IMG/VR virus record: IMGVR_UViG_3300023174_000138
Coordinates: 14,144-78,143 of that record
From: a virus
DNA: 64,000 nucleotides
Strand: one strand, 5' to 3'
Shown here: piece after piece, positions 4,082 to 58,991 of the stretch
How the letters are laid out: each line of letters starts with the position of its first letter
Position numbering within the stretch: the first letter of the stretch is position 1
The notes under the pieces: model-generated
The model's database searches: none
What the model saw: only the letters and a program-made list of their open reading frames with translations
What the model was told of the DNA's origin: nothing
Made by a program: the position numbers and the translations under genes

Positions 4082-5020
4082 TTATTTAAAGAAATCGCCA
4101 ATTTTGTAACCAGTGGCGTTAACTTTATTATTCTTACTCGTTAGTGAGTGGCCCTTGCTATCAGGAAGGGCGGAAAGCTTACCATCGTTTACGGCCTTGA
4201 TATCACCGGAAGCTTTGCCGCCTTTAGCATGACCGAGCTTACCAGCAACCTTATTGTTCTTGCCTTGTAGAGCTTGACCCTTACTGTCAGGGAGCTGTTC
4301 AAGTTGAGTAGCTTCACCGGCTACTTCTTCTTGATCTTCATCTTTTTCTTCTTCTTTTTCGTCTTTTTTAGCTTTGTGCTGCTCATCTTCTTCTGCAGCA
4401 ACAGGGGCTTGCTCGTCTTCAGGCTTTTCTTCTGTTTCACCGCCAAGATCTTCTTCACCACCGTGATCTTCTTCACCACCACCTAGAACGTCGCCGAGCA
4501 TATCGTGTAATTTTTGAGCAACATCGCGAGGAAGTGTCAAGGTGATTTCATCGCCCTCACCACCCATATCTTCTGGCTTATCAGCCTCAGCACCTTCCGG
4601 GCCGGCTTGAATGCCAAGATCAAGGGCATCATCCTTCATTACATCTTCATAAAGTTTATCAAATATCGATTTGCTCATAATATTATTTATATTCGCTGGC
4701 TCCTTTTTTTCAAGGGCTGTAGAAAATTTTTGTGGCTCAAAATGATTATTTTTTTCTGCATTTTTAGGATCAACTATATTCTTGCTAAAACCTTCTGCGG
4801 CTTCTGGGCCAGTATTCTTAAGAGCGAAAGCGTTTTTATCTGTGCCCTTTGCCATTATCTTTTTAGCATCAATTTTTTTATCTTTTGCCAATGGAAAAGT
4901 AGCTAATGTCTTTTTTGTCTTTTCTTCTACTACTTCTGTACTAGTATTATTTTTCGGAGCAACATGCTCCATGGCTGCGTAAACCAACCCGATATCTTTA
5001 ATACTAGTAACTCTTGTCAT
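4082..5020 (-). CDS. Acidic/low-complexity late protein, candidate prohead core or internal protein
   Basis: 312 aa, E/K/G-rich. TATAAATA lies 6 nt before the ATG. LPDSKGxxLxxKNNKV occurs twice. A second in-frame late start is at 4678. Confidence 0.75.
   Translation of the reverse strand: MTRVTSIKDIGLVYAAMEHVAPKNNTSTEVVEEKTKKTLATFPLAKDKKIDAKKIMAKGTDKNAFALKNTGPEAAEGFSKNIVDPKNAEKNNHFEPQKFSTALEKKEPANINNIMSKSIFDKLYEDVMKDDALDLGIQAGPEGAEADKPEDMGGEGDEITLTLPRDVAQKLHDMLGDVLGGGEEDHGGEEDLGGETEEKPEDEQAPVAAEEDEQHKAKKDEKEEEKDEDQEEVAGEATQLEQLPDSKGQALQGKNNKVAGKLGHAKGGKASGDIKAVNDGKLSALPDSKGHSLTSKNNKVNATGYKIGDFFK
4684..4691 (-). promoter_or_regulatory. Internal T4-type late promoter
   Basis: TATAAATA, 5 nt, then in-frame ATG 4678 inside the 312-aa ORF. 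Confidence 0.7.
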
Positions 5021-5026
5021 ATATAG

Positions 5027-5047
5027 TATTTATACTCAGGATAAATA
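5027..5047. promoter_or_regulatory. Back-to-back late promoters for the 312-aa gene and terminase
   Basis: TATAAATA on the minus strand (5034-5027) and ATAAATA on the plus strand (5041-5047). Confidence 0.8.
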
Positions 5048-5052
5048 ATAAT

Positions 5053-6768
5053 ATGACGGATAAAGAAAAATATTATCTAGGCAACGAACGCTTGCCCACC
5101 ACAGATACCAAGTTCGAATACACATCTGAGATGATAAGCGAGATTAAAAAATGTAAGAAAAACCTATTACATTTTGCTGAGAATTACTTCTTTATCATTA
5201 ACTTAGATAGAGGTAAGGAAAAAATTAAATTATATCCTTGTCAAAAAAGAGTACTCAGGAACTTAAGAGATAATCGTTTTGTCATACTACTCTCTTCTAG
5301 ACAGAGCGGTAAAACTACACAAATGACAATATATTGTCTGTGGAATGCATGCTTTAATGATGATCAGAGAATTCTTATTGTTGCAAATAAAGAGCAAACA
5401 GCGAAAAATATTTTCAAACGGGTAAGACTAGCCTATGAGATGTTACCTAATTTTTTAAAGCCTGGTGTAGTCGAATACGGTCAGACAAGCATGACACTTA
5501 CAAACGGCAGTAGTATAGGTATCAGTACAACTAGCAGCGACGCGGGTAGAGGTGATAGCTGTAATTGTCTTGTGTTGGATGAATTGGCTTTTATTGACAA
5601 TCATATTGTTGATAAATTCTGGGAATCAGTATATCCAATTATTAGTAGTTCTAAAAAAAGTAAAATTTTTATTGCAAGTACCCCTAACGGTACAGATAAT
5701 CTTTTCTACAGACTCTATAAAGGCGCTGAAGAGGGCGATAATAACTGGCGAGCAGAAAGAATCGATTGGTGGGAAATCCCCGGAAGAGATGAAAAATGGA
5801 AACACGATACAATTAAAACTCTTGGTAGCGCGGAAACATTTTCGCAAGAATTTGGAAATGAATTTCTTCATGGTGGCGAAAGTAGTATTAATGAATTTCT
5901 ATATAATTCCTCTTTAAGAGATTGCAGAGAGCCAGAATTTGTTTTTGATGATGGAAAATATTTAATGTGGGAGGAGCCACGTGAAGAAAGAATTTATATA
6001 GCGGGTGTTGATGTAAGCGAGGGTGTGAACGAGGCGGCTAGCGTTGTACAAATTTTAGATGTTACTGATTTATCTAGTATAGAGCAGGTTGCGGTTTACC
6101 ATACTCGAAATACACCGCCATTTCAATTTACTGCAAAACTTTTAGAGATTTTAACACAATGGGGGCGGCCACCTGTTTGTATAGAAAGAAATAGTTGCGG
6201 TGCGCAAGTGGTAGAACAACTCAAATTTACTCATGGGTATGAAAATATAGTATCGTGGGGCGCTAAAGCAGGTGATAAAACTGATTTTAAAAGAGTTGGA
6301 ATTTTATCACACACAAATACAAAGTACAGAGGCATTACTAACATGAGATATTGGGTGAACGAATTAAAAGTATTAAAGTTTAGAGATATTAATACTCTTA
6401 AGGAATTTAAAACTTTTATAAGATATCCTAATAATACGTGGGGTGCACGCCCCGGTGCTGATACCTGGGATGATAGAGTCATGGCCTTAGTATGGGCTTT
6501 AATTATTCTTGAAAATGAGCTTTGTAACAGATATTTTGATGTTATTAAGCTTGATGATTGTGATAGACCACAAATTATTAAACCGTTAGACTATGGTATA
6601 AGAGGTGTCGTGAGTCCACTCAGCTTATACATGAACGAAAAAAATATTGGGGCTGAAACCGCGCTGCCCACTATTTTCGAAGGCGGGAGTGAAGAAAAAG
6701 ATGCAGAAATGGAAGAGTTAAAAAGACAAGGCTGGTACTTACCGGGACAGTCATTTTTTGATAAATAA
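5053..6768 (+). CDS. gp17: Terminase large subunit (T4 gp17-like; start revised to 5053)
   Basis: YLGN..L N-terminus, Walker A SSRQSGKTT, Walker B LVLDELAF, coupling motif STPNG, nuclease motifs GVDVSEG and DDRVMAL. TAAATA lies 5 nt before ATG 5053. Confidence 0.96.
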   Translation: MTDKEKYYLGNERLPTTDTKFEYTSEMISEIKKCKKNLLHFAENYFFIINLDRGKEKIKLYPCQKRVLRNLRDNRFVILLSSRQSGKTTQMTIYCLWNACFNDDQRILIVANKEQTAKNIFKRVRLAYEMLPNFLKPGVVEYGQTSMTLTNGSSIGISTTSSDAGRGDSCNCLVLDELAFIDNHIVDKFWESVYPIISSSKKSKIFIASTPNGTDNLFYRLYKGAEEGDNNWRAERIDWWEIPGRDEKWKHDTIKTLGSAETFSQEFGNEFLHGGESSINEFLYNSSLRDCREPEFVFDDGKYLMWEEPREERIYIAGVDVSEGVNEAASVVQILDVTDLSSIEQVAVYHTRNTPPFQFTAKLLEILTQWGRPPVCIERNSCGAQVVEQLKFTHGYENIVSWGAKAGDKTDFKRVGILSHTNTKYRGITNMRYWVNELKVLKFRDINTLKEFKTFIRYPNNTWGARPGADTWDDRVMALVWALIILENELCNRYFDVIKLDDCDRPQIIKPLDYGIRGVVSPLSLYMNEKNIGAETALPTIFEGGSEEKDAEMEELKRQGWYLPGQSFFDK

Positions 6769-7468: not shown

Positions 7469-9913
7469 ATGGCAAGAACTATTCAAAGTCCAGGAGTTGA
7501 AATTCGTGAAGTTGACCTCACGTTAAGACCTGTAATCAATCAAGGCACTAGTGTATTTATAACTGGTTTTGCCGCTCAAGGCCCTATCGATGAAGTGTTA
7601 CAGCCAACCTCTTTAAGCGAATTTGAGCAAATTTACGGTACCCCGACCAATGCCGCAGAAAGATATTTTTATCATACAGTAAAGGCTGCCCTGCAAGGGC
7701 CAGTGCAGTTAAAAGTTTCTAGACTACCTTACGGTGATGATCGAGGTGAAGGCTTTGCTACATGGCGCTACAGCGCTCTAGTTTACCCAGCAGTCGGCTT
7801 CAACACAACAACCAATCCTATTTCTTCAACCTATACAAGCAAGCTTTCTGCAAATGCATTATTTCTTACGGCGCCTTATCACCTAGAATTATCTTTAGAA
7901 CAATATCAACTATTGGCTAATAATAATATTGATTGGTCGGTTGATGGTATTACTGCAGAAATTCCATTTACTGGGTTTAATGAAATAGGTAGAACAGCGA
8001 TAATAATCATAAACAAATCTCAAGTGACAAACAATAATAAGTTTGAAGGTTATTATGTCGCTTTAACAGACAATGCTAATGTTAACCCTGCTACACCCTT
8101 TGACGGTGTTGGCTCCATTAAAGCTGTAGGAGCGTCTCTACCAGTTATTGGTGAGGCTACCTCGTACATTAGTGTACCGAAAACTAGATTAAATTTTGCT
8201 TTATCTGCTACAAAATTTGGTGACGGTACAAGTATTAGTGAAGTAATGGAAAACATGAGCACATTTGATATAGCTGGTACAAACTTCTCTGATACATTAT
8301 CATTAGGTGTCTTCAAGCTAAGACAGAGCGTATTTTCACCAGATGTGATAGCGTTAGATTATGTTTTATCTGAAAAATATGTAGGCTCGCTTGATTATCA
8401 CAGACAGATTGCTTCTGAAACTGGTGGTGCACCGACGAGCTTTTTCTTAGGGAATTTAACAAAGAATTCCCCTAACATTAAGGTTTTAGTTAACCCTTAT
8501 ATTTCAAATCAACTATCCAATACATGGCTTGATTCTAGTGGTAAGCCAACAAAAACAGTGAGAATGGCATCTCAGCAAAACTTTACACCTTTAAGTGTTC
8601 AGGGAGCTGTTGACACAAGCACATCATTTTTAACACGCGTAGGTACAACATCCGCTGTTACTATTAAAGGTAGCGTGGTAAATCTCAAGAATTCAGAATT
8701 TGCAGATGTAAACGATTATGCTGACAGTCTGTTTCCACTTGGTGTATATTCAGAAACAGTTACAACTAATAAAAATATCGGAAGCTTGCCTCAGAAGTTA
8801 GAGCGTGTTTTCGATTTAGTTGAAAATGCCGATCTATATCCAATTAATATTGTCCCCGAAGCTGGTCTAGGATCAATTTATGTTGGTGTAACTGAGGCCG
8901 CGGTTAAGGCAAATATACCTCTTTCCGCGTGCGGTCCCTACAGTGAGACAACTCCAATCAACACATTAAGTAGTTTCTATACAACTAATAACGAGCTAAT
9001 AACCGATGAAGGATTGAGAATACGCGGTAATTATAATGCCGTAGCTAGTGTATTTGTAAATGCTGCGCAAAATCAAAGAAAAGACTTTTTAGTTGTTCTG
9101 GATGCTCTAAGACATATTTTTGTTCAAGGTGAGAACAATAAGATTATCAATACAAAGAAAATTTACAGTCCTAATGCAGGTGTTGATCCAGATCCTCGCG
9201 CACCAGGTTATGTAAGTACTAACTTTAGTCAACACATTTATTGGCCATTAAGACATCAATTTGGTCTGCTAGATTCTAGTTATGCATGTACATATGCTAC
9301 GGTAGCCCAGGTCTTAGATCCATCTACTAATAGACAGGTCTGGATTCCATTCTCTGGGTTTGCAACCGCTGCAATGGCTAATACTGATGCAAACTTTCAA
9401 CCATGGTTTGCCCCCGCAGGGTTTACACGCGGTATATTACTTGGTGTAAATGATCTTGGTGTTTATCCTAAGCAGAAGCAGCGCGATCAACTTTATAAAA
9501 TTGGTCTAAACCCTGTACCGTTCTTCCCTGTTGAAGGTTTTGTTATCTTCGGTCAGAAGACATTGCTCAAGAAGCCCAGCGCTTTTGATCGCATTAATGT
9601 ACGTAGATTATTCTTAAATCTAGAAGTAGCTACTAGGGACACTGTTAAGTATTTTGTGTTCGAACCCAACACATTGTTTACTAGAACACAAGTAATTAAT
9701 ACTTTAACACCTATTTTTGAAAATGCTAAGAATACTGAAGGGTTATATGATTATCTCATTATTTGCGATGAGCGTAATAATACGCCCGATGTTATCGATC
9801 AAAATGAAATGAAGGTTGATATTTATCTAAAGCCGGTCCGTGCCGCGGAGTTTATCTTAGTAAGCTTCTACGCTACACGTACTGGTCAAAACTTCCAGGA
9901 GTTAGTAGCGTAA
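7469..9913 (+). CDS. gp18: Tail sheath protein (T4 gp18-like)
   Basis: SPGVEIREVDLT N-terminus; PWFAPAGFTRG, GQKTL..KPSAFDRINVRRLF, FEPN and DERNNTPDVID motifs. Confidence 0.96.
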   Translation: MARTIQSPGVEIREVDLTLRPVINQGTSVFITGFAAQGPIDEVLQPTSLSEFEQIYGTPTNAAERYFYHTVKAALQGPVQLKVSRLPYGDDRGEGFATWRYSALVYPAVGFNTTTNPISSTYTSKLSANALFLTAPYHLELSLEQYQLLANNNIDWSVDGITAEIPFTGFNEIGRTAIIIINKSQVTNNNKFEGYYVALTDNANVNPATPFDGVGSIKAVGASLPVIGEATSYISVPKTRLNFALSATKFGDGTSISEVMENMSTFDIAGTNFSDTLSLGVFKLRQSVFSPDVIALDYVLSEKYVGSLDYHRQIASETGGAPTSFFLGNLTKNSPNIKVLVNPYISNQLSNTWLDSSGKPTKTVRMASQQNFTPLSVQGAVDTSTSFLTRVGTTSAVTIKGSVVNLKNSEFADVNDYADSLFPLGVYSETVTTNKNIGSLPQKLERVFDLVENADLYPINIVPEAGLGSIYVGVTEAAVKANIPLSACGPYSETTPINTLSSFYTTNNELITDEGLRIRGNYNAVASVFVNAAQNQRKDFLVVLDALRHIFVQGENNKIINTKKIYSPNAGVDPDPRAPGYVSTNFSQHIYWPLRHQFGLLDSSYACTYATVAQVLDPSTNRQVWIPFSGFATAAMANTDANFQPWFAPAGFTRGILLGVNDLGVYPKQKQRDQLYKIGLNPVPFFPVEGFVIFGQKTLLKKPSAFDRINVRRLFLNLEVATRDTVKYFVFEPNTLFTRTQVINTLTPIFENAKNTEGLYDYLIICDERNNTPDVIDQNEMKVDIYLKPVRAAEFILVSFYATRTGQNFQELVA

Positions 9914-47083: not shown

Positions 47084-47116
47084 AAAAGAGGGGTCCTTGT
47101 GGCCCCTCTTTTTTTT
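47084..47116. terminator. Intrinsic terminator after gp23, probably bidirectional between convergent units
   Basis: AAAAGAGGGGTC-CTTGT-GGCCCCTCTTTTTTTT. Confidence 0.9.
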
Positions 47117-47144: not shown

Positions 47145-50100
47145 TTAAATAAGCCAGCCTTCAATTAATATAGAAGCTGAAAGTGTTGTAACTCCTGTAG
47201 CTGCAGGAGCAACTAATCTCAAAGCAATAACATCACCTGCATTGGTAATAATGTTATTTGTATTACCTGCAATATATGATCCATCTAGGATAGTGCCTGC
47301 TATGGAGGGTATATAGGCATTAGCTATACCGGTATTACTTTGAGTTGCGTCTACGAGCTTTAAAGTTGGCGCTACGGTTGTAGTTCCAGTTATGGCAGTA
47401 ATATAACCTCCAAATGTTTTACAAATAAACCTTCGTCCCGCGGGTACAGTAAATAGATTTGTATTTGTAGTTAGGGCACCAATTAAATTATAAGGCGAGT
47501 AGGAGATAGTAGTTAAAAGAGGATATGTTGTAAGTTGGTTTGCCGCAGCATTCCACCCAGCACTATTGGTATTTGTTGTTGTCCAGTCAGATGCCCAATC
47601 TTGACTACTCTTATGAGCATTAGTAGAAATTGTTCCGACTACAGTAAGTTTTTCATTAGGTGCTGTTGTGCCTATGCCAATATTACCTGCTGATGTTATA
47701 ATGAATATAGTAGAAGCATTACTTCCGCTAGTAACAGTAAACAAGTTAGATGCACTTGTGCTAGAGGATGCTGTTGTAATGGTTAAGCTGCCTTGCACTG
47801 AAGAATCTTTATATGATTTAAATCCTTGACCAAATGCAGCACCTCCTGCCACATCAAGATCATTTCCTATGACAGCATTTCTTATAATATATGCAGTATC
47901 TGTTGATAGCCCTCCTGCTTGTAATTGCTGTATATATGCTCCACCTAAATCAAGAACATTTATTCTATTATTAGCTCTATCAGCTAAATAGGCATATCTA
48001 CCTTGTATATCGAAATTACATGGCCAGGTAGAAGTGCCGCTATAGCTAGCTATGGATGCAACTAACCTAGGAGAAGATGGATTAGATACATCTATTTTAT
48101 GTAACCCAGCTAAATTAGAAAAATAAGCATAATTGCCTTGCAAAATAATGTTACTCAAATTTGTACTCCCTACAACAAAAGGTACAGGGATGTATGATGT
48201 AGTTGTACCGTTGTTTATTCCAAATTGATTATTAAAGTTCATGTAGAGGTACCTTCCTCTAACTATTGCACCATTTACTGCTCCTCCGGTAAAATAGAAC
48301 ATTTCAGCTGCAGGCTTACTTCTCGGATCAGATACATCCATTCTATATACCCCTGCAGTACCTGAGTACCCTCTAGCCCAGTACAAATATTTTCCTTGTA
48401 TTGTTAATCCGTTACTGTTTCCATTAGTACTCGTTTGTGTTATAAATATTTTTTCAGGCGCATATGGATTACTAATATCATACGCAATAATATACCCATC
48501 AACCGATGAGTTGTTAGTTAGAATAAATGCGTAGCTTCCTTGCACAACAACATCAAAAGCGTTTTGTGTCGTCCCTATGGTAGAGGTGCTTAGCAATTTA
48601 AAACTTGAGGGATTCTGAATTTCAAATATTTGAAATACACTACTTGATCCGTTACTAGTAACCACATAAGCATATTTGCCATTAACATACAGACCTTGTG
48701 GGTTAGAAGCGGTTGAAATCTTACCGGTACTAATTGGCGTGGTTTGTGTCAAGTCATAACTCATTAAAGACGCGTCACCGTAGTTTGTGACATACGCATA
48801 GTTACCTTGTATTTTAATATTAGATGTAGAAGAAGTGGCTGCAGCAGAAGCAGCAAACTTCATAGTACCTCTCACATCCACTGGTGCTACAGGTGCATTG
48901 GTATAAAAACCAGCATAACCTGATACAGGTTCAACATACATGCCAGTCATAGCAGATATAGGTGTTGTAGAGGTTATGCTACTAGGATTAGGACCTGCAT
49001 AAACACCACTTGCATAAGCAATGCCATTAGTGCTTAAAAAGCTTGTTACTGTAAAGCCGCCAAGACGAATATTATCTAACGTTTCATCAGCAATACGTCT
49101 GCCGGAGTATAATGCTCTATTAGTACCAGCATTTGCAAGAATTACAAATAAACCGTTACCGTATGCTGCAGCTTTGTATGTCTCAGCTTCTGTTCCTGTT
49201 TTAACCACCCATGTAATACCATCAAAAGAATACATCCACTTTGAACCTGAACTAGTAAGTGAGGCTGCAACAAACACTCCATCGCCATAAGCAACACTTT
49301 GCCAATTGCCTCCAGAAACGGCTCTAGAAGTCCATGTGATACCATCAGGTGAAGTCATTACACGACCACTTGTACCGGAACTTGCTACAGCGACAAATAT
49401 TCCATTGCCATAAGTAATACTATTCCATTGCTCTGATGCTGCAGCAGTTCTAATTGTCCAGGTGACGCCATCTGGTGACGTCATGACACGGTTTATCGCA
49501 GAAGGAGTGCCTGCAGTATTTGACACAGCAACATACAAACCATTGCCATATGTAACTGAGTTCCAGCTAGTAGCAGCTACAGCTACTGAAGTCCAGGTTA
49601 CACCATCTGGTGAGGTCATGACACGGCCATTGGCTACTGCCACAAACAAACCATTGCCATATGTAACACTGGTCCAGGCATATCCTTCAACAGTTCGCAC
49701 AGTCCAGTTAATGCCATCTGGAGAAGTCATTAAGCGGTTGCTGCCAGCATTAGCAACTGCTACAAACAAACCTCTGCCAAATGTCACGCTGGTCCAGTAA
49801 TTTGTAGTAATAGAACCACTATTCAATACCCAGTTTATACCGTCTCGTGAATATGCTATACCATAATCGATGGCTACAGCTACAAAAACTCCGTTACCAT
49901 ATGCTACACTATTCCATGCATAACTAGATGAAATAGAACCAGCGCTCCAATCTACACCTCGAATATAAGAGCTACTAGAAGCATTAGTAATTGTATAGAC
50001 TGATTCCCATTTACCGCTATTTGAATTGGTAGTGGTCCAGTTAGAATCGTACTTTGGAATATTATTATAAGCCGAATCCCAATTAGCACTATTAGTATTG

Positions 50101-50435
50101 GTTGTAGTGTAATTAGAATCGTATTTTGATATATTATTATAAGCCGAATCCCAATTAGCACTATTGGCTTTGCTAGAAGTATATACACTATCCCAATTAG
50201 CGCTATTGGCTTTAGCAGAACTATAAACACTATTCCAGTAACCGGAATTAGTATTGGTGGAGGTCCAATTAGAGTCGTATTTACTGGAGTTAGAATTAAA
50301 GGAAGTCCAATTAGAGTCGTATTTACTGGAGTTAGAATTAGTGGTAGTCCAGTTGGAGTTCCACTGATCACTATTACCGTTTACAGTACTAATTGTACTT
50401 ATAACTGTTACGTTATTAAGAAAAGGAATGCTCAT
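47145..50435 (-). CDS. Tail fibre / receptor-binding protein with N-terminal 14-aa repeats, a W.SV.YGNG propeller and an LVIVD-like propeller
   Basis: NSxxWDSxYT repeats; about seven WxSVxYGNGxFVAV...SPDGxTW blades; VQG.YAY blades; GNIGIGT.AP..KL motif. Confidence 0.75.
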   Translation of the reverse strand: MSIPFLNNVTVISTISTVNGNSDQWNSNWTTTNSNSSKYDSNWTSFNSNSSKYDSNWTSTNTNSGYWNSVYSSAKANSANWDSVYTSSKANSANWDSAYNNISKYDSNYTTTNTNSANWDSAYNNIPKYDSNWTTTNSNSGKWESVYTITNASSSSYIRGVDWSAGSISSSYAWNSVAYGNGVFVAVAIDYGIAYSRDGINWVLNSGSITTNYWTSVTFGRGLFVAVANAGSNRLMTSPDGINWTVRTVEGYAWTSVTYGNGLFVAVANGRVMTSPDGVTWTSVAVAATSWNSVTYGNGLYVAVSNTAGTPSAINRVMTSPDGVTWTIRTAAASEQWNSITYGNGIFVAVASSGTSGRVMTSPDGITWTSRAVSGGNWQSVAYGDGVFVAASLTSSGSKWMYSFDGITWVVKTGTEAETYKAAAYGNGLFVILANAGTNRALYSGRRIADETLDNIRLGGFTVTSFLSTNGIAYASGVYAGPNPSSITSTTPISAMTGMYVEPVSGYAGFYTNAPVAPVDVRGTMKFAASAAATSSTSNIKIQGNYAYVTNYGDASLMSYDLTQTTPISTGKISTASNPQGLYVNGKYAYVVTSNGSSSVFQIFEIQNPSSFKLLSTSTIGTTQNAFDVVVQGSYAFILTNNSSVDGYIIAYDISNPYAPEKIFITQTSTNGNSNGLTIQGKYLYWARGYSGTAGVYRMDVSDPRSKPAAEMFYFTGGAVNGAIVRGRYLYMNFNNQFGINNGTTTSYIPVPFVVGSTNLSNIILQGNYAYFSNLAGLHKIDVSNPSSPRLVASIASYSGTSTWPCNFDIQGRYAYLADRANNRINVLDLGGAYIQQLQAGGLSTDTAYIIRNAVIGNDLDVAGGAAFGQGFKSYKDSSVQGSLTITTASSSTSASNLFTVTSGSNASTIFIITSAGNIGIGTTAPNEKLTVVGTISTNAHKSSQDWASDWTTTNTNSAGWNAAANQLTTYPLLTTISYSPYNLIGALTTNTNLFTVPAGRRFICKTFGGYITAITGTTTVAPTLKLVDATQSNTGIANAYIPSIAGTILDGSYIAGNTNNIITNAGDVIALRLVAPAATGVTTLSASILIEGWLI
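49950..50370 (-). repeat. Coding tandem repeat with a 42-nt (14-aa) basic period
   Basis: GTCCAATTAGAGTCGTATTTACTGGAGTTAGAATTA is identical at 50263 and 50305; ATATTATTATAAGCCGAATCCCAATTAGCACTATT occurs twice. Confidence 0.85.
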
Positions 50436-53141
50436 TTATCCCTGATCTTCTGTCCATGCTATTTTTGATCTTGTCATAGCTATGTAATTATTATTAAGAT
50501 CATCAGGAGAACCAAATGTTTTTATACCAACAGTAACTACATCAGGGCCATCAGGAAATACATAATTACCTCCTAAAATACTATTAGTTAAATCTCTAAC
50601 TATATCTATATTAAATGTATTGTAACATAATTTTTGTGTTCCAATAGAACTAAAACTATTATCTGGAGTAAGCAAAAAGTATGCAATTAAATCGCCCCCA
50701 GTACCCTCAACGTTAAAAGTGCCGTCTCTTGTATGATCAAAATATTGAGCTATACTACCGTTTGGAGCTGAGCGCCAGGCTGATAAATTTTTGAAAAGCG
50801 TTTGAGGTTCGGGGTTTACTCTAACAAAAATTTGTATAGGCGCGGTAGACACGACTTGAATATTTCTTAACGCCAAAGAAGAATGGTTGACTACATTTCT
50901 TACACCTAGCAAACCGGTAATTCCATAGTCAACAGAAGGAGCTAACCTCACACTTAATAATGCTTGTTCAGCAGAAGTCGCAGAAAGCATAGTCGTGTTA
51001 AATGCAGAAAACAGATAAGATTTATCTTCATTGAAATTACCATCCATTAATGCAGCGACACCCCAATGACTTAACGCAGGAGAACAATTTTGATTGTATG
51101 ATATAACCCCGTCACCGCTTAATGCTGTGATATTACCGGTAGTAAGCCCTCCTACATTTCTTCTATTAATAGTTAGTTTAACCCCGTTAGAAACGGTTTC
51201 GGATTTAGTATAATAAATATACTCATTATTAATAACAATACAACCTTTATTAGGAAGATTTGCCCCTAAATCAGAATCTACTATTATAAATGAGGAATTA
51301 ACTTGTAAATCGCTTATTAAATTTCCGCTTTTTGAATTGCTTGTAATTTCAAACCGCCCAGGTACATTACCGGAACGCATATGCGCTTTTGTATTAACGT
51401 TGTTGTTATAAATTTCATGAAAATATATAATTTTACCTTCATTGGCTCTTATTCCATAACGTATTTTTCCAGCACCATACCAAGAATAGTCGATAAACAC
51501 CATTTGCATTCTATTAATATTAAAAATATAGCCGCTTGGACCAGTGCCATCTAGTTTATCTAGATTAAATTCGCTTTGAGGAATTCTTAATTCTTCTGTT
51601 TTAACTACTTTTAACCCTGAAGCACTAGGCCCTCTATAAGTAGGGGTTATAACTGCAGATAAATTATTGCGTATTGAAAATACTTGATATGACATTCCTT
51701 TAATTGATATAAAATCATTTTCTCTTAACTGTGTTAAAAACTTTGTATTATTATCAGTACTCACCATCCAAGAGCTACTTGCCGCAACAGTAATTGTACC
51801 GTTAATAGGGGTTGTGGTTTGTCGCTTTACAACATAGAACGACTTTCCGTCAAATTCAAAAAACATCCCATTTTGATCATCAAATAAACCGCTTCTCACG
51901 GTGGCATCATGCCACCCGTTGACGTCTACCGAGGCAATCCCGCCTGGGGCTAAATCAGATGTAGGAAAAGGATTATACACTGTATGCACTGGTATTTGTA
52001 CTTCAAATGTTTTAGAGTTTATAATTTTTGAAATTTTAAATGTTTGATTATAAGGGTTTTTACCCCCGCTTATGGTAAATCCGTTTGTTGTAATATTAAC
52101 GCCTTCTCTATAGGTTTCAGGTGTAGCAAAACCATGATATTGTTCCGTAGTTATTCTAAAATCATAATAAGGGTAAGTAATATCATTTTGATTAGAGTCT
52201 ATTACCTGGCTCGCTATTACTTCATAAACAGGTCTAAATAAAACTCCTGAACTAAATTGCATACTTTTACCAGATTGATATTTAAAATAATTTCTTGTTT
52301 GTCTCATAACCCTACAGTTAGGAGCGCTGGTACCGGGGTTAATTTGAACACCCCCGTCTTGAAATCTATGAATAGCTACCCCCTCTGTTCTTCCATATAC
52401 TTTACCGGAGGATGGTATTAATAGCGTACTTCTGCTAAAATTTTGACCTGTGAGTGTTTGAAAAATAATTTTTGTATCGCTGGGTACTGCACTAACAGAA
52501 AATGAACCGCACCATGGTGCGGTTGGTTGATTATTATCTACAACAATAATAGGACTATTAAGAAAAAGCCCATGAGGTGTTTGAAACTCTACTAGCGCTG
52601 CGCTTGTAGCTGGAATTGCTGATACCCCTACAATCGGTATATCAGCATTAGAATAAAAACCTCCTGTGTATAAACCTGTGTAAGCTGTCTTTTGATCACC
52701 AACTAATGCTCCAGGCGATTTGGTTAACACTTGAAATGAATATTCAGAAGGGACTTGCGTGATTATATAAGCTCCATCAACATATGTGGTATTCGCCGAA
52801 TCTTTTATTACTATCGAATCACCTACTTTAAACGCATTTCTAGGTAAAATATTTACTGTTACCGTTAAAAATTTATTATTTGCCCCGGAAGGAAGCATTG
52901 AAGTTATTTGACCTGCCGTAAATGCAGGTTCATTTGCTCTAGAATAAACACCAGGTAAGTTGCTAGCTAAATTTAAAAATTCCCACTTAGAAGCTTGTAA
53001 TGAATATTCAAAATCTGTGTCAATTAAGCTTTGCGGATTACTAACACGCAATTTTTCCACAGCATCTCTACCGGCATCATTGAATTTGATACCGTCTTCT
53101 ACTAGGTTCTGCAAGAACCCCGATTCTCTACTATATGGCAT
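50436..53141 (-). CDS. Large virion structural/fibre protein
   Basis: DA.EKLRVSNPQSLIDTDFEY, RQTR.YFKYQSGK, GLFDDQNG.FFE and IDYSWYGAG.IR motifs, as in T4-like virion proteins. Confidence 0.7.
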   Translation of the reverse strand: MPYSRESGFLQNLVEDGIKFNDAGRDAVEKLRVSNPQSLIDTDFEYSLQASKWEFLNLASNLPGVYSRANEPAFTAGQITSMLPSGANNKFLTVTVNILPRNAFKVGDSIVIKDSANTTYVDGAYIITQVPSEYSFQVLTKSPGALVGDQKTAYTGLYTGGFYSNADIPIVGVSAIPATSAALVEFQTPHGLFLNSPIIVVDNNQPTAPWCGSFSVSAVPSDTKIIFQTLTGQNFSRSTLLIPSSGKVYGRTEGVAIHRFQDGGVQINPGTSAPNCRVMRQTRNYFKYQSGKSMQFSSGVLFRPVYEVIASQVIDSNQNDITYPYYDFRITTEQYHGFATPETYREGVNITTNGFTISGGKNPYNQTFKISKIINSKTFEVQIPVHTVYNPFPTSDLAPGGIASVDVNGWHDATVRSGLFDDQNGMFFEFDGKSFYVVKRQTTTPINGTITVAASSSWMVSTDNNTKFLTQLRENDFISIKGMSYQVFSIRNNLSAVITPTYRGPSASGLKVVKTEELRIPQSEFNLDKLDGTGPSGYIFNINRMQMVFIDYSWYGAGKIRYGIRANEGKIIYFHEIYNNNVNTKAHMRSGNVPGRFEITSNSKSGNLISDLQVNSSFIIVDSDLGANLPNKGCIVINNEYIYYTKSETVSNGVKLTINRRNVGGLTTGNITALSGDGVISYNQNCSPALSHWGVAALMDGNFNEDKSYLFSAFNTTMLSATSAEQALLSVRLAPSVDYGITGLLGVRNVVNHSSLALRNIQVVSTAPIQIFVRVNPEPQTLFKNLSAWRSAPNGSIAQYFDHTRDGTFNVEGTGGDLIAYFLLTPDNSFSSIGTQKLCYNTFNIDIVRDLTNSILGGNYVFPDGPDVVTVGIKTFGSPDDLNNNYIAMTRSKIAWTEDQG

Positions 53142-54550
53142 TCACCCTATTGGACCAGGAGGCTCATCGCCCTCCATATAATCAACTCGATCCCAATATG
53201 CTCACAGATTACTCAGTGTTTGGACTATATCTTCAAATTATAAAATTTGTCGGACGCTCGTGCTGGTTATTAAGGCTTCCTATACCTCCAGTAGTCTCTA
53301 CACCTTCTAGAAAAGCGTTTCTAGCTTGGCTCGGTATTACCCACGACTTTCACGCCGGGCTTCACCGAATTCATCCGATAAGGGCGGTTATTTTTAAGTT
53401 AATCTTCTAGTGCAGTAAACCCTCCTCTCTGAAACCGTGTGGTGACAATTTTTGTGCGTTGCGCAAAAATAACTTTATCATATCCCCCTATACCTGTGTC
53501 TGCTTCTAGTTTACCTATTCTATATATTCTGCCTTTTTGTGACTCTTGCTTAAAAGGAGCAGGAGACCACCATTCTATACTGTTTATACCATCATCAGAA
53601 CCATTAATAGTTTTATATCCAAATTGTCCTAATTTTAATACTTCATTTAAAGGAGGCTCAGAGCCACCTCTTTTAGCATTTCCTCTTACTTTATTACTAA
53701 AAAATGTCCATACTATTTCAACAAAAACAATATCATAAGGCTTTAGAGGTATACCCTCAAAGCACCTAAATAGAAGCCCGTCTGATAAACAGGGTAATCT
53801 ACCGGAATTATTATTTCCCGTCTGCCATTTAAATCCTTCAGAGGATGGAATAACTCCTTCGGGTTTTATCTTAAGATCGGCATTTACATTTTGAATAGGC
53901 CATTTATTTAATTTATCAATACTATTATTTTTATAGTAAAATAGTTTAGTTATTGTTACTGTTGCGGGTAATTGAGGGGTGGCGGTTGTATATGGATTAG
54001 CTATATAAGTCCAGCTAACTTCATTTATAGTACTAGAATTACCTAGAGTATTATCTGTACTACTACTAAAAGCATTATCATACCAGGGATCTACATCATT
54101 TAGACGTGTCTGCCAAACCCAGCGAGTATTGGCTAGATCATATATTATTCTACTTCTACCACTTCCATTACTCGATTGCCATGTTTCTGCCCCATCAATT
54201 TTACTTTTAAAAGTAAAATCTTGATTTATGGTAATAAGTAAGCCAGCTACATTAATATCAACATTTATAGCGGTTTTTGAGGGGGTACTATCAAACCCAC
54301 CGTTACGTTGACCTTTTCTTGTTGCTAAATAAACAAATGTATTGTTTTCATATTTAAAAACGTAACGTCTTAAGGCTGTGTTTTTCGCTCGTTGCGCCGC
54401 TCTTGTGCTATTACCTTGTTTACCACTTCTCGATGCTGACTTACCTAGAGCGAGTTGGCCAGGGTAATAAGTACGTCTTGCTCCCTTATATACAGGTAAT
54501 AAAGCAGGTCTATCTTCGTTCCCTATAAACTTTCTATTATTGTTGTTCAT
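53142..54550 (-). CDS. Intron-containing hypothetical late protein: exon 1 54550-53419, exon 2 53200-53142 (396 aa spliced, 383 aa unspliced)
   Basis: Joining GGG-T to CA-TAT restores the frame as ...RGGSYWDRVDYMEGDEPPGPIG*, and its TGA abuts the ATG of the next gene. N-terminus is basic. Confidence 0.6.
53201..53418 (-). ncRNA. Group I self-splicing intron with no homing endonuclease ORF (3' splice site 53201 or 53194)
   Basis: Core elements on the minus strand: P AATTCGGTGAAG, Q AATACCGAGCCAAG, R GGTGTAGAGACTA, S GAAGATATAGTCC. Helices: P3 TCGGATG/CGTCCGA, P4 TTCGGT/ACCGAG, P5 GCCC/GGGT, P6a CTAGAA/TTCTAG, P7 GACTA/TAGTC, P7.1 CTGG..CCAG, P8 CAAATT/AATTTG, P9 with a GTAA loop, and P1 GAGGGT/GCCCTT with a U-G pair. 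Confidence 0.9.
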
Positions 54551-56469: not shown

Positions 56470-56512
56470 AACGATAGATTATTTATGCACCTTTAAAAAA
56501 ATTAAAGGTTGA

Positions 56513-58984: not shown

Positions 58985-58991
58985 TATTTAT
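58985..58991 (-). promoter_or_regulatory. Late promoter for the fibre shaft gene
   Basis: ATAAATA 6 nt before ATG 58978. Confidence 0.75.

What the first reader, a model, noticed from the sequence alone, without database searches (positions are those of the whole stretch)
47145..53419. Splicing may gate translation of the two downstream fibre genes
Seen in sequence: the 901-aa gene (ATG 53141) has no TAAATA promoter and no well-spaced SD. The preferred exon 2 ends TGA-ATG exactly on its start, and the 901-aa gene in turn ends TAA-ATG on the 1096-aa fibre gene. On unspliced RNA, ribosomes stop at 53399, upstream of about 200 nt of folded ribozyme. Inference: only spliced mRNA would deliver ribosomes to the coupled start. 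The intron would then act as a GTP/Mg-dependent switch or dosage control for putative receptor-binding proteins, which could explain its retention without an endonuclease. It would also give two C-terminal isoforms of the host protein.
Basis: inference. Interest (0 to 1): 0.7.

Follow-up and report, generated by a model that had tools for sequence, protein, structure and literature searches.

The report
Guide-first group I ribozyme before fibre gene
The RNA enzyme between two phage structural genes is real, but it interrupts no gene; its guide pairs with a site two bases before the next gene's start codon, so it most likely cuts the message there rather than splicing two exons.

Summary
The proposed splice is not supported. 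The "unspliced" C-terminus (..GGFTALED*) is the conserved native end of the 383-aa protein in about 50 homologues. The proposed terminal G (53201) and the exon-2 peptide are not conserved, and 9 of 14 relatives have no upstream 5' splice site that fits the guide.

The ribozyme sits after the stop codon in all 14 related loci where the junction could be read (28-51% protein identity); one further relative lacks it. Its guide (CGCCC, 53386-53382) pairs with GGGUG (53147-53143). The G.U wobble is invariant and the flanking pair covaries. The target lies 0-12 nt (mostly 2) before the downstream ATG.

In this phage 19 of 50 large ORFs have a T4-type late promoter placed so that transcription starts at the ATG. 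Shine-Dalgarno sites are rare, and the 901-aa gene has neither.

Best reading: a guide-first (permuted-layout) ribozyme cuts at U53144|G53143 and makes a near-leaderless mRNA for the 901- and 1096-aa genes. Nothing was tested at the bench.

The scan has noted this ribozyme layout before in other phage genomes. The link to leaderless promoters was not in the notes I retrieved.

The parts
53399..54550 (-). Upstream gene A, 383 aa, beta-rich protein of unknown function. Its native stop is TAA 53401-53399.
   Evidence: ORF list. 54 homologues, nearly all ending ..RGGxTALE*. AlphaFold model pLDDT 73 with no PDB match. No Pfam or PHROG hit.
53387..53398 (-). A/U-rich 12-nt spacer between the stop codon and the guide
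   Evidence: Alignment A2: relatives have spacers of 10-25 nt with no conserved motif.
53382..53386 (-). Guide (internal guide sequence) CGCCC, joined to P3 by the 3-nt linker UUA (53381-53379). There is no P1 hairpin and no P2.
   Evidence: Pairs with 53147-53143. 14/14 relatives are paired, G.U is invariant and the outer pair covaries.
53203..53378 (-). Catalytic core: P3 53378-72/53256-50, P4 53367-64/53335-32, P5 53360-57/53342-39, P6 53330-28/53304-02, P6a 53324-19/53312-07, P7 53296-92/53227-23, P7.1 53291-88/53266-63, P8 53249-34, P9 53218-14/53207-03
   Evidence: RF00028 at 64.1 bits. Compensatory changes in P3, P4, P6a and P9; 91.5% of cells paired against 82.5% in shuffles. Coordinates.
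53148..53202 (-). 55-nt P9 extension (helix UUGG 53196-93 / CCAA 53153-50; hairpin GGAGG 53175-71 / CCUCC 53162-58). This is the segment that would be circularised if a second step occurs.
   Evidence: Folds. Relatives have 22-110 nt here, with a G after P9 in 13/14 but A in the window.
53143..53147 (-). Target strand GGGUG. Predicted cut between U53144 and G53143, 2 nt before the ATG.
   Evidence: The plain MFE fold also closes the element with CGCCCU/AGGGUG.
50436..53141 (-). 901-aa virion structural protein (S-PM2 p175-like; PHROG 5838)
   Evidence: PHROG 5838, E 1.6e-159. 31-33% identity to cyanophage virion structural proteins.
47145..50435 (-). 1096-aa protein with EPTP/LVIVD repeats, start-stop coupled (TAA-ATG) to the 901-aa gene
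56480..56486 (-). Late-promoter motif ATAAATA 10 nt before the ATG of the 265-aa gene. It is the nearest upstream promoter of the operon 265-150-213-383-[ribozyme]-901-1096. A second motif lies at 58985-58991 before the 821-aa gene.
   Evidence: The T4 late promoter lies at -13..-6 (PMC1524935).

Best explanation
This is a guide-first (permuted-layout) group I ribozyme that has been kept for a long time between gene A and the p175-like virion gene. It is not an intron in a coding sequence. It lies within a polycistronic late transcript that starts at the promoters at 58991 and 56486. Its guide CGCCC (53386-53382) sits 3 nt before P3. It pairs not with an upstream exon but with GGGUG (53147-53143), which lies behind the core and its 55-nt P9 extension. 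This forms a P1-type helix with the canonical U.G wobble.

Guanosine or GTP bound in the P7 pocket should attack after U53144. That cut would separate the 901/1096-aa message from the upstream cistrons and leave a 5' end of G + GA + AUG. In this phage many late genes appear to be expressed from leaderless mRNAs, with the late promoter ending 4-10 nt before the ATG. The cut would therefore give the 901-aa gene the kind of 5' end that a promoter gives the others. The 1096-aa gene follows by TAA-ATG coupling. A second step could in addition close the P9 extension into a small ring.

Shown: the layout, its conservation, the covariation, and the promoter/SD statistics. Inferred: the cleavage itself, the transcription start positions, and leaderless translation.
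For: (1) The core is real and under selection: RF00028 at 64 bits, with compensatory changes in P3, P4, P6a and P9.
(2) It is intergenic. About 50 homologues of gene A end in ..GGxTALE*, which is the unspliced reading. In 14 loci with 28-51% protein identity the same core follows the stop codon and precedes the p175-like gene. The P5 subtypes of the ribozyme follow gene-A similarity, which indicates vertical inheritance.
(3) Guide and target are 100% paired in 14/14. G.U is invariant and the neighbouring pair is G-C x10, U-A x3 (one of them outside the aligned column: in L061 the partner is the A of the AUG) and C-G x1. Other lineages carry UGCCU/AGGUA and GGUCC/GGAUC with the wobble kept.
(4) No conserved upstream 5' splice site exists: 9/14 have no GGGU within 200 nt upstream.
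(5) The target lies 0 nt (1 locus), 2 nt (8), 3 nt (2), 7, 10 or 12 nt before the ATG. In most relatives a second helix pairs the segment after P9 with the start-codon region: cognate -6.2 against non-cognate -4.0 kcal/mol.
(6) 19/50 ORFs of 120 aa or more have TAAATA ending 4-10 nt (mode 5) before the ATG, against 42/1875 of all ATGs. Only 9/50 pass a loose SD test. T4 late promoters lie at -13..-6 (PMC1524935). The same holds in the other group-A loci but not in SD-using phages that carry a related ribozyme far from the ORF.
(7) The other operon genes are promoter-proximal or stop/start coupled. The 901-aa gene is neither.
(8) The one ribozyme-less relative (L068) has stop, then 14 nt containing CTAAATA, then ATG.
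(9) Engineered constructs with the same order (guide, ribozyme, insert, target) cleave and circularise with P1 alone (PMC10457212).
Against: There are no RNA or bench data. Within the gene-A clade only one of the five guide-target pairs varies. The second helix (Px) is weak in the window itself. The cut would leave G+GA before the AUG, not a strictly leaderless end. In some relatives the leader would be 7-12 nt. In related ribozymes of other phages the target is followed by a terminator (Flavobacterium phage immuto) or lies about 250 nt before an SD-led ORF, so making a leaderless end cannot be the universal role. The helix could instead be read as P10 with the first G of GGGU as the terminal G. 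Transcription start positions are inferred from the T4 rule, and the host and its tolerance for leaderless mRNA are unknown. In the window (and in L064) an upstream GGGU (53422-53419) does exist, so some conventional splicing cannot be excluded here.
Confidence: 0.5

Rival explanations
1. One reading: a conventional self-splicing intron. The 5' splice site would lie in the last codons of gene A (after U53434, or after the GGGU at 53422-53419) and the 3' splice site after G53201. Splicing would give a 20-residue alternative C-terminus ending in a TGA that abuts ATG 53141, so that terminating ribosomes re-initiate on the 901-aa gene.
For: TGA-ATG is present and in frame. The window has an upstream GGGU that fits the guide's GCCC. 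G53201 follows P9, where related conventional introns end in ..AAUG. Other genes of the operon do use stop/start coupling.
Against: The residues that would be removed (F/YTALE) are conserved across the family. The exon-2 ORF, its stop and G53201 are unique to the window. 9/14 relatives lack any upstream GGGU, and 5/14 lack even GGU at the Gly-Gly codons.
Confidence: 0.08
2. Same layout, different chemistry. The first G of GGGU (53147) is the terminal G, and GGUG/CGCC is a P10 helix. The ribozyme only hydrolyses its 3' splice site, cutting between 53147 and 53146, which is 5 nt before the ATG, and leaving a 5' phosphate.
For: A(A/U)G precedes GGU in most relatives, resembling the ..AAUG ends of conventional relatives. 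P9.1/P9.2-type extensions normally come before the terminal G. Hydrolysis of the 3' splice site is a known side reaction of group I introns (my own knowledge).
Against: An invariant G.U wobble is the hallmark of P1, not P10. In the UGCCU/AGGUA lineage the aligned position is A, C or U, not G. The C-G pair to that G is invariant.
Confidence: 0.17
3. The main product is a small circular RNA, and the cut in the mRNA is a by-product. After the cut at U53144, the new 3' OH attacks behind a terminal G after P9 (53201 or 53203) and closes the 57-59-nt P9 extension into a ring.
For: The order guide, core, G, insert, target is that of engineered STS/PIE constructs (PMC10457212; PMC10415121) and of the coral ND5-717 back-splicing intron (PMC6545197). 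A G after P9 is kept in 13/14 relatives and pairs with the start-codon region, which could order the two steps. Earlier notes of this scan propose rings for the same class (unchecked).
Against: That G is A in the window. The insert varies from 22 to 110 nt and looks like ordinary peripheral ribozyme structure. No junction was found in viral contigs, although DNA collections are a weak test.
Confidence: 0.12
4. The ribozyme has a non-catalytic or upstream-directed role. The folded RNA acts as a 3' stabiliser of the upstream message, or as a barrier that keeps the 901-aa start closed, without cutting.
For: It always follows a stop codon by 10-25 nt. In phage immuto a terminator follows the target. 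The start codon is buried between two helices.
Against: The catalytic positions (J8/7, P7, J6/7) are invariant across loci whose flanking proteins are 28-51% identical. The U.G wobble is kept. A closed start with no way to open it would silence a conserved virion gene.
Confidence: 0.1

Closest known systems
Conventional ORF-less phage group I introns (Rfam RF00028; T4 td/nrdB/nrdD type, the type recalled from memory)
   Same: The catalytic core is the same (P3-P9, P7.1 insert, GNRA loops). It scores 64 bits and shares core sequence with conventional introns found by the same 19-nt motif.
   Different: It has no P1 hairpin and no P2, interrupts no ORF, and has no conserved upstream 5' splice site. 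The guide pairs with a strand behind the core.
[quoted passage not shown]
   Same: The order of parts is the same: guide, ribozyme, terminal G, insert, target NNNNNU. P1 alone suffices. 'Target-site cleavage without the second step' is a listed product.
   Different: The element here is natural. Its insert is only 22-110 nt of ribozyme-like structure. The sequence after the target is a gene that starts 0-12 nt away.
[quoted passage not shown]
   Same: It is a natural group I ribozyme working from a permuted arrangement.
   Different: In the coral case the permutation arises at the transcript level and still serves to join two ND5 exons. Here no exons are joined.
Clostridium difficile c-di-GMP-II aptamer plus group I ribozyme in a 5' UTR (Lee et al. 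2010, as reviewed in PMC3984707 and PMC9481103)
   Same: It is a domesticated group I ribozyme in an untranslated region whose reaction decides whether the downstream start can be used.
   Different: The C. difficile element splices conventionally and builds a ribosome-binding site. No aptamer is present here: Rfam found only RF00028 in the window.
GIR1 / lariat-capping ribozyme (from memory)
   Same: It is a group I-derived ribozyme without P1 that cuts behind its core and so forms the 5' end of a downstream mRNA.
   Different: GIR1 uses branching (a 2',5' lariat cap) and a distinct core with DP2/DP2.1/P10. No GIR1-type Rfam match appeared here.

Membership tests
Group I ribozyme (Rfam RF00028 core) | Covariance-model match above the curated threshold | tested here: met
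   64.1 bits against a gathering score of 50, E 6e-14, full model 1-253. Relatives score 65-67 bits.
Group I ribozyme (Rfam RF00028 core) | P3-P9 helices supported by compensatory changes, with an invariant P7/J8-7 core | tested here: met
   16 pairs have changes on both sides. 91.5% of cells are paired against 82.5% in shuffles and 29-44% when slid. P7 is invariant.
Group I intron (self-splicing intervening sequence) | Interrupts a gene, and its removal restores the conserved reading frame | tested here: not met
   The unspliced reading gives the conserved C-terminus and stop of the protein family. The downstream protein starts at its own conserved ATG.
Group I intron (self-splicing intervening sequence) | P1 formed by the upstream exon ending in U paired to a guide G | tested here: not met
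   9/14 relatives have no GGGU within 200 nt upstream. The Rfam P1 alignment has non-standard pairs.
Group I intron (self-splicing intervening sequence) | Conserved terminal G at the 3' splice site | tested here: inconclusive
A G after P9 is present in 13/14 relatives but is A in the window.
Guide-first / permuted group I layout (engineered STS/PIE; coral ND5-717) | Guide upstream of the core, paired to a target with a U.G wobble downstream of the core | tested here: met
   CGCCC 53386-82 pairs with GGGUG 53147-43. 14/14 are paired with covariation. Five guide/target variants occur across lineages.
Guide-first / permuted group I layout (engineered STS/PIE; coral ND5-717) | Circular product from back-splicing | tested here: inconclusive
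   Junction patterns in viral contigs gave no hit for the window and only chance hits for an L007-type junction. DNA collections cannot settle this.
Guide-first / permuted group I layout | Site-specific guanosine-dependent cleavage at the target | not testable with these tools
   This needs in vitro transcription with labelled GTP, or 5'-end mapping.
Lariat-capping (GIR1) ribozyme | Match to the GIR1 model and its DP2/DP2.1/P10 junction | tested here: not met
   The scan of the whole window against all 4227 Rfam families returned only RF00028.
Allosteric c-di-GMP-II / group I ribozyme | A c-di-GMP-II aptamer directly upstream of the ribozyme | tested here: not met
   There is no riboswitch match in the window. 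Upstream of the guide lie 12 nt of spacer and a coding sequence.

The most novel reading that the evidence does not exclude
In a clade of T4-like phages whose late genes are translated from leaderless mRNAs, a domesticated group I ribozyme stands in for a promoter. By attacking a target tethered behind its own core, it cuts a polycistronic late RNA 0-12 nt before the start codon. This creates the 5'-terminal AUG that ribosomes need. A helix that pairs the terminal-G region with the start codon then lets release of the mRNA trigger a second step, which closes the ribozyme's P9 extension into a small RNA ring.
Probability: 0.3. Interest if true: 0.9.

Novelty: new variant of a known kind. Interest (0 to 1): 0.75.

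Why it matters
Group I ribozymes in bacteria and phages are treated as introns, that is, as selfish or neutral insertions that must splice out. Here the same catalytic core has been kept for a long time between two virion genes with its substrate strand moved behind it. In that layout the only conserved reaction it can perform is to cut the message at the next gene's start codon.

If that cut is real, it is a natural counterpart of the engineered 'self-targeting' ribozymes used to make circular RNA. It would also be an RNA-only way to make a translatable (leaderless) 5' end inside an operon.

The prediction is directly testable in vitro on about 320 nt of RNA. It is also testable in a cultured system, because Flavobacterium phage vB_FspM_immuto carries the same layout. 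For annotation, such elements should not be used to predict spliced protein isoforms. In one deposited genome the ribozyme is annotated as a 45-aa CDS.

Tried and rejected
(2) A conventional P1 using the Gly-Gly codons (GGAGGU) was rejected: 5/14 relatives read GGAGGA.
(3) A 5' splice site inside the A/U spacer was rejected: in several relatives the only G between the stop codon and P3 is the guide G itself.
(4) A read-through fusion of the 383-aa and 901-aa proteins across the in-frame TGA was rejected. Homologues of gene A end at TALE*, and the downstream proteins begin at their own ATG.
(5) Gene A as the missing N-terminal domain of p175-like proteins: 80 other p175-domain loci carry an extra 70-117 aa and no ribozyme, but no similarity to gene A was found. 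This was not pursued.
(6) A late promoter inside the ribozyme or spacer of the window was rejected: there is no exact ATAAATA, and TTAAAAATA is only a near-match.
(7) Searches of phage isolates for gene A or the whole locus found no match.
(8) The function of gene A could not be assigned: no Pfam, PHROG, PDB-sequence or Foldseek match.
(9) Back-splice junction searches gave nothing meaningful.
(10) A second scan for more distant or ribozyme-less relatives returned only contigs already held.
(12) The original Lee et al. 2010 paper is not held.
Full report
WHAT IS THERE. On the minus strand the window carries a tight late operon: 821 aa, 265 aa, 150 aa, 213 aa, 383 aa ("gene A"), a 257-nt gap, 901 aa and 1096 aa. 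The window is part of a 78-kb IMG/VR contig of a distant T4-like phage. Its gp23-type capsid protein is about 33% identical to those of cyanophages. A scan of the whole window against Rfam gives one hit, a group I ribozyme at 53441-53202 (64.1 bits, threshold 50). The 901-aa protein is a relative of cyanophage S-PM2 p175, a virion structural protein (PHROG 5838). The 1096-aa protein carries EPTP/LVIVD repeats.

CHECK OF THE OBSERVATION. The unspliced stop is TAA 53401-53399. TGA 53144-53142 abuts ATG 53141 in the same frame. The 901-aa gene ends TAA directly before ATG 50435. The 901-aa gene has no late-promoter motif and no spaced Shine-Dalgarno sequence.

THE PROPOSED SPLICE FAILS THE COMPARATIVE TEST. 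A search with gene A found 54 homologues, and nearly all end ..AQRTRIITTKYxRGGxTALE*. The stop at 53401-53399 is the real stop.

I fetched 14 related loci from viral and metagenome contigs. Their gene A products are 28-51% identical to the window's. In every one the same ribozyme core begins 10-25 nt after that stop and is followed by the p175-like gene. The 20-codon "exon 2" and its TGA exist only in the window. Nine of the 14 have no GGGU within 200 nt upstream of the guide, and five lack even GGU at the Gly-Gly codons. There is therefore no conserved conventional 5' splice site. The P5 subtypes of the ribozyme follow the similarity of gene A, so the element has been inherited vertically with the module. 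One phage contig even carries two copies of the gene A, ribozyme, p175-like module (L040/L045).

WHAT THE GUIDE PAIRS WITH. Three nucleotides before P3, where a P2-less group I ribozyme has its internal guide sequence, the window has CGCCC (53386-53382). Its partner is GGGUG (53147-53143), behind the core and a 55-nt P9 extension. On the 14-sequence alignment A2 this helix is paired in every sequence. The G.U wobble is invariant and three C-G pairs are invariant. The outer pair is G-C in ten sequences, U-A in three (one of them outside the aligned column, because in L061 the partner is the A of the AUG) and C-G in one.

Related ribozymes in other phage lineages keep the wobble while the rest changes: UGCCU/AGGUA, and GGUCC/GGAUC in the cultured Flavobacterium phage vB_FspM_immuto. 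A U.G wobble followed by 3-4 base pairs and a short joiner to the core is the signature of P1, the substrate helix. Here, however, the substrate strand is tethered to the 3' side of the ribozyme. Even a plain minimum-free-energy fold closes the element with CGCCCU/AGGGUG.

In most relatives a second long-range helix pairs the segment just after P9 with the start codon or first codons. Examples are AAAAGUC/GGCUUUU, UAUGUGC/GCACAUA and AUGUUG/CAACAU. Cognate duplexes average -6.2 kcal/mol against -4.0 for non-cognate pairs. The helix is weak in the window itself, where another internal segment pairs with codons 2-4.

WHERE THE TARGET LIES, AND WHY THAT MATTERS IN THIS PHAGE. The target ends 0 nt (one locus, GGGU|AUG), 2 nt (eight loci, including the window), 3 nt (two loci), or 7, 10 or 12 nt before the ATG of the p175-like gene.

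In the window, 19 of 50 ORFs of at least 120 aa have TAAATA ending 4-10 nt (mode 5) before the ATG, against 42 of 1875 for all ATGs. Only 9 of 50 pass a loose Shine-Dalgarno test. The T4 late promoter TATAAATA occupies -13 to -6 (PMC1524935). By that rule these late transcripts would start at or within a few bases of the A of the ATG, which makes them leaderless. This is an inference from the T4 rule, not a measurement.

The other gene-A loci show the same pattern. Phages that carry a related ribozyme far from the next ORF use Shine-Dalgarno sites instead. Within the operon, the remaining genes either have such a promoter or sit 0-4 nt after the previous stop. The 901-aa gene alone has neither. 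The single ribozyme-less relative (L068) has stop, then 14 nt containing CTAAATA, then ATG. Other phages' p175-like genes have a Shine-Dalgarno site or a promoter, and none of 80 examined has the ribozyme.

MOST LIKELY MECHANISM. Guanosine or GTP bound in the conserved P7 pocket attacks after U53144. The upstream cistrons keep the folded ribozyme at their 3' end. The 901/1096-aa message is released with the 5' end G-GA-AUG. The 1096-aa gene follows by TAA-ATG coupling.

It replaces exon ligation and ribosome delivery with cleavage at the start codon, and it predicts no C-terminal isoforms.

Engineered RNAs with the same order of parts do exactly this. They can also go on to circularise the insert, and P1 alone suffices (PMC10457212; PMC10415121). 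A natural permuted group I precursor is known from coral mitochondria (PMC6545197). A domesticated group I ribozyme that controls a start site is known from C. difficile (PMC3984707). I found no description of this layout for phages.

UNCERTAINTIES. Nothing here shows catalysis. The helix can also be read as P10 with the first G of GGGU as the terminal G (hydrolysis 3 nt further upstream). A G after P9 is conserved in 13 of 14 relatives, though not in the window, and it could serve a back-splicing step that makes a 22-110-nt ring (57-59 nt here). Junction searches in DNA collections were uninformative. In immuto the target is followed by a terminator, and in another lineage it lies about 250 nt before the ORF, so making a leaderless end cannot be the only role of the class. 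The window and L064 do have an upstream GGGU, so minor conventional splicing is not excluded here. The host is unknown.

RELATION TO EARLIER NOTES. After reaching this reading I looked up the scan's notebook. Several agents have described the same guide-first or permuted group I layout in other phage genomes, and one claims a head-to-tail joint in environmental RNA. These notes agree with my reading but are unchecked and are not independent evidence. None that I retrieved mentions the leaderless-promoter context.

Noticed in passing
whole window, e.g. ATGs at 1248(-), 5020(-), 5053(+), 9938(+), 12325(+), 42074(+), 58978(-): 19 of 50 ORFs of at least 120 aa have the late-promoter core TAAATA ending 4-10 nt (mode 5) before the ATG, and Shine-Dalgarno motifs are rare. 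By the T4 rule (-13..-6) these late mRNAs would be leaderless. This would be an unusual expression strategy for a T4-like phage.
   Followed up: partly
L040 and L045 (both from IMGVR_UViG_3300007214_000017, 148.8 kb): One phage contig carries two diverged copies of the whole module (gene A paralogue, guide-first ribozyme, p175-like gene). Each copy has its own matching guide and target.
   Followed up: partly
L072 2434-2705 (NC_055915.1, Flavobacterium phage vB_FspM_immuto_2-6A, about 145024-145295): A cultured phage has the same layout in its tail-fibre module: stop TGA, 12-nt spacer, guide GGUCC, core, target GGAU|C, then an intrinsic terminator. The ribozyme is annotated as a 45-aa hypothetical protein (gp045).
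   Followed up: partly
L019 about 4850-5250 (-) and L024 about 8760-9130 (+): These are related group I cores directly behind a perfect TATAAATA / AATAAATA motif. Their 5' leader (ACAGUUCUUUGCAAUUGU-type) forms a 15-22-bp Watson-Crick helix with a strand behind the core, with no G.U. This resembles the antisense arms added to engineered circularising ribozymes.
   Followed up: no
window 50436-53141 (-) compared with L074-L153: The 901-aa protein and its relatives next to gene A start directly at MPY(S/T)RESGYL. They lack the 70-117-residue N-terminal segment (MAKKLVYNYTFDASA..) that other phages' p175-domain proteins carry.
   Followed up: no
window 47084-47112: A strong 12-bp GC-rich hairpin with T-runs on both sides lies between the convergent capsid gene (ends 47036, +) and the 1096-aa gene (ends 47145, -). 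It is probably a bidirectional terminator that closes the ribozyme-containing operon.
   Followed up: no
window 53422-53419 (-): The window's gene A reads GGA GGG UUU (relatives mostly GGA GGU/GGA; L064 reads GGG GGU), which creates an upstream GGGU that fits the guide. The homologues P0001 and P0002 share the identical RFQRGGFTALED tail. Their DNA could not be fetched.
   Followed up: no
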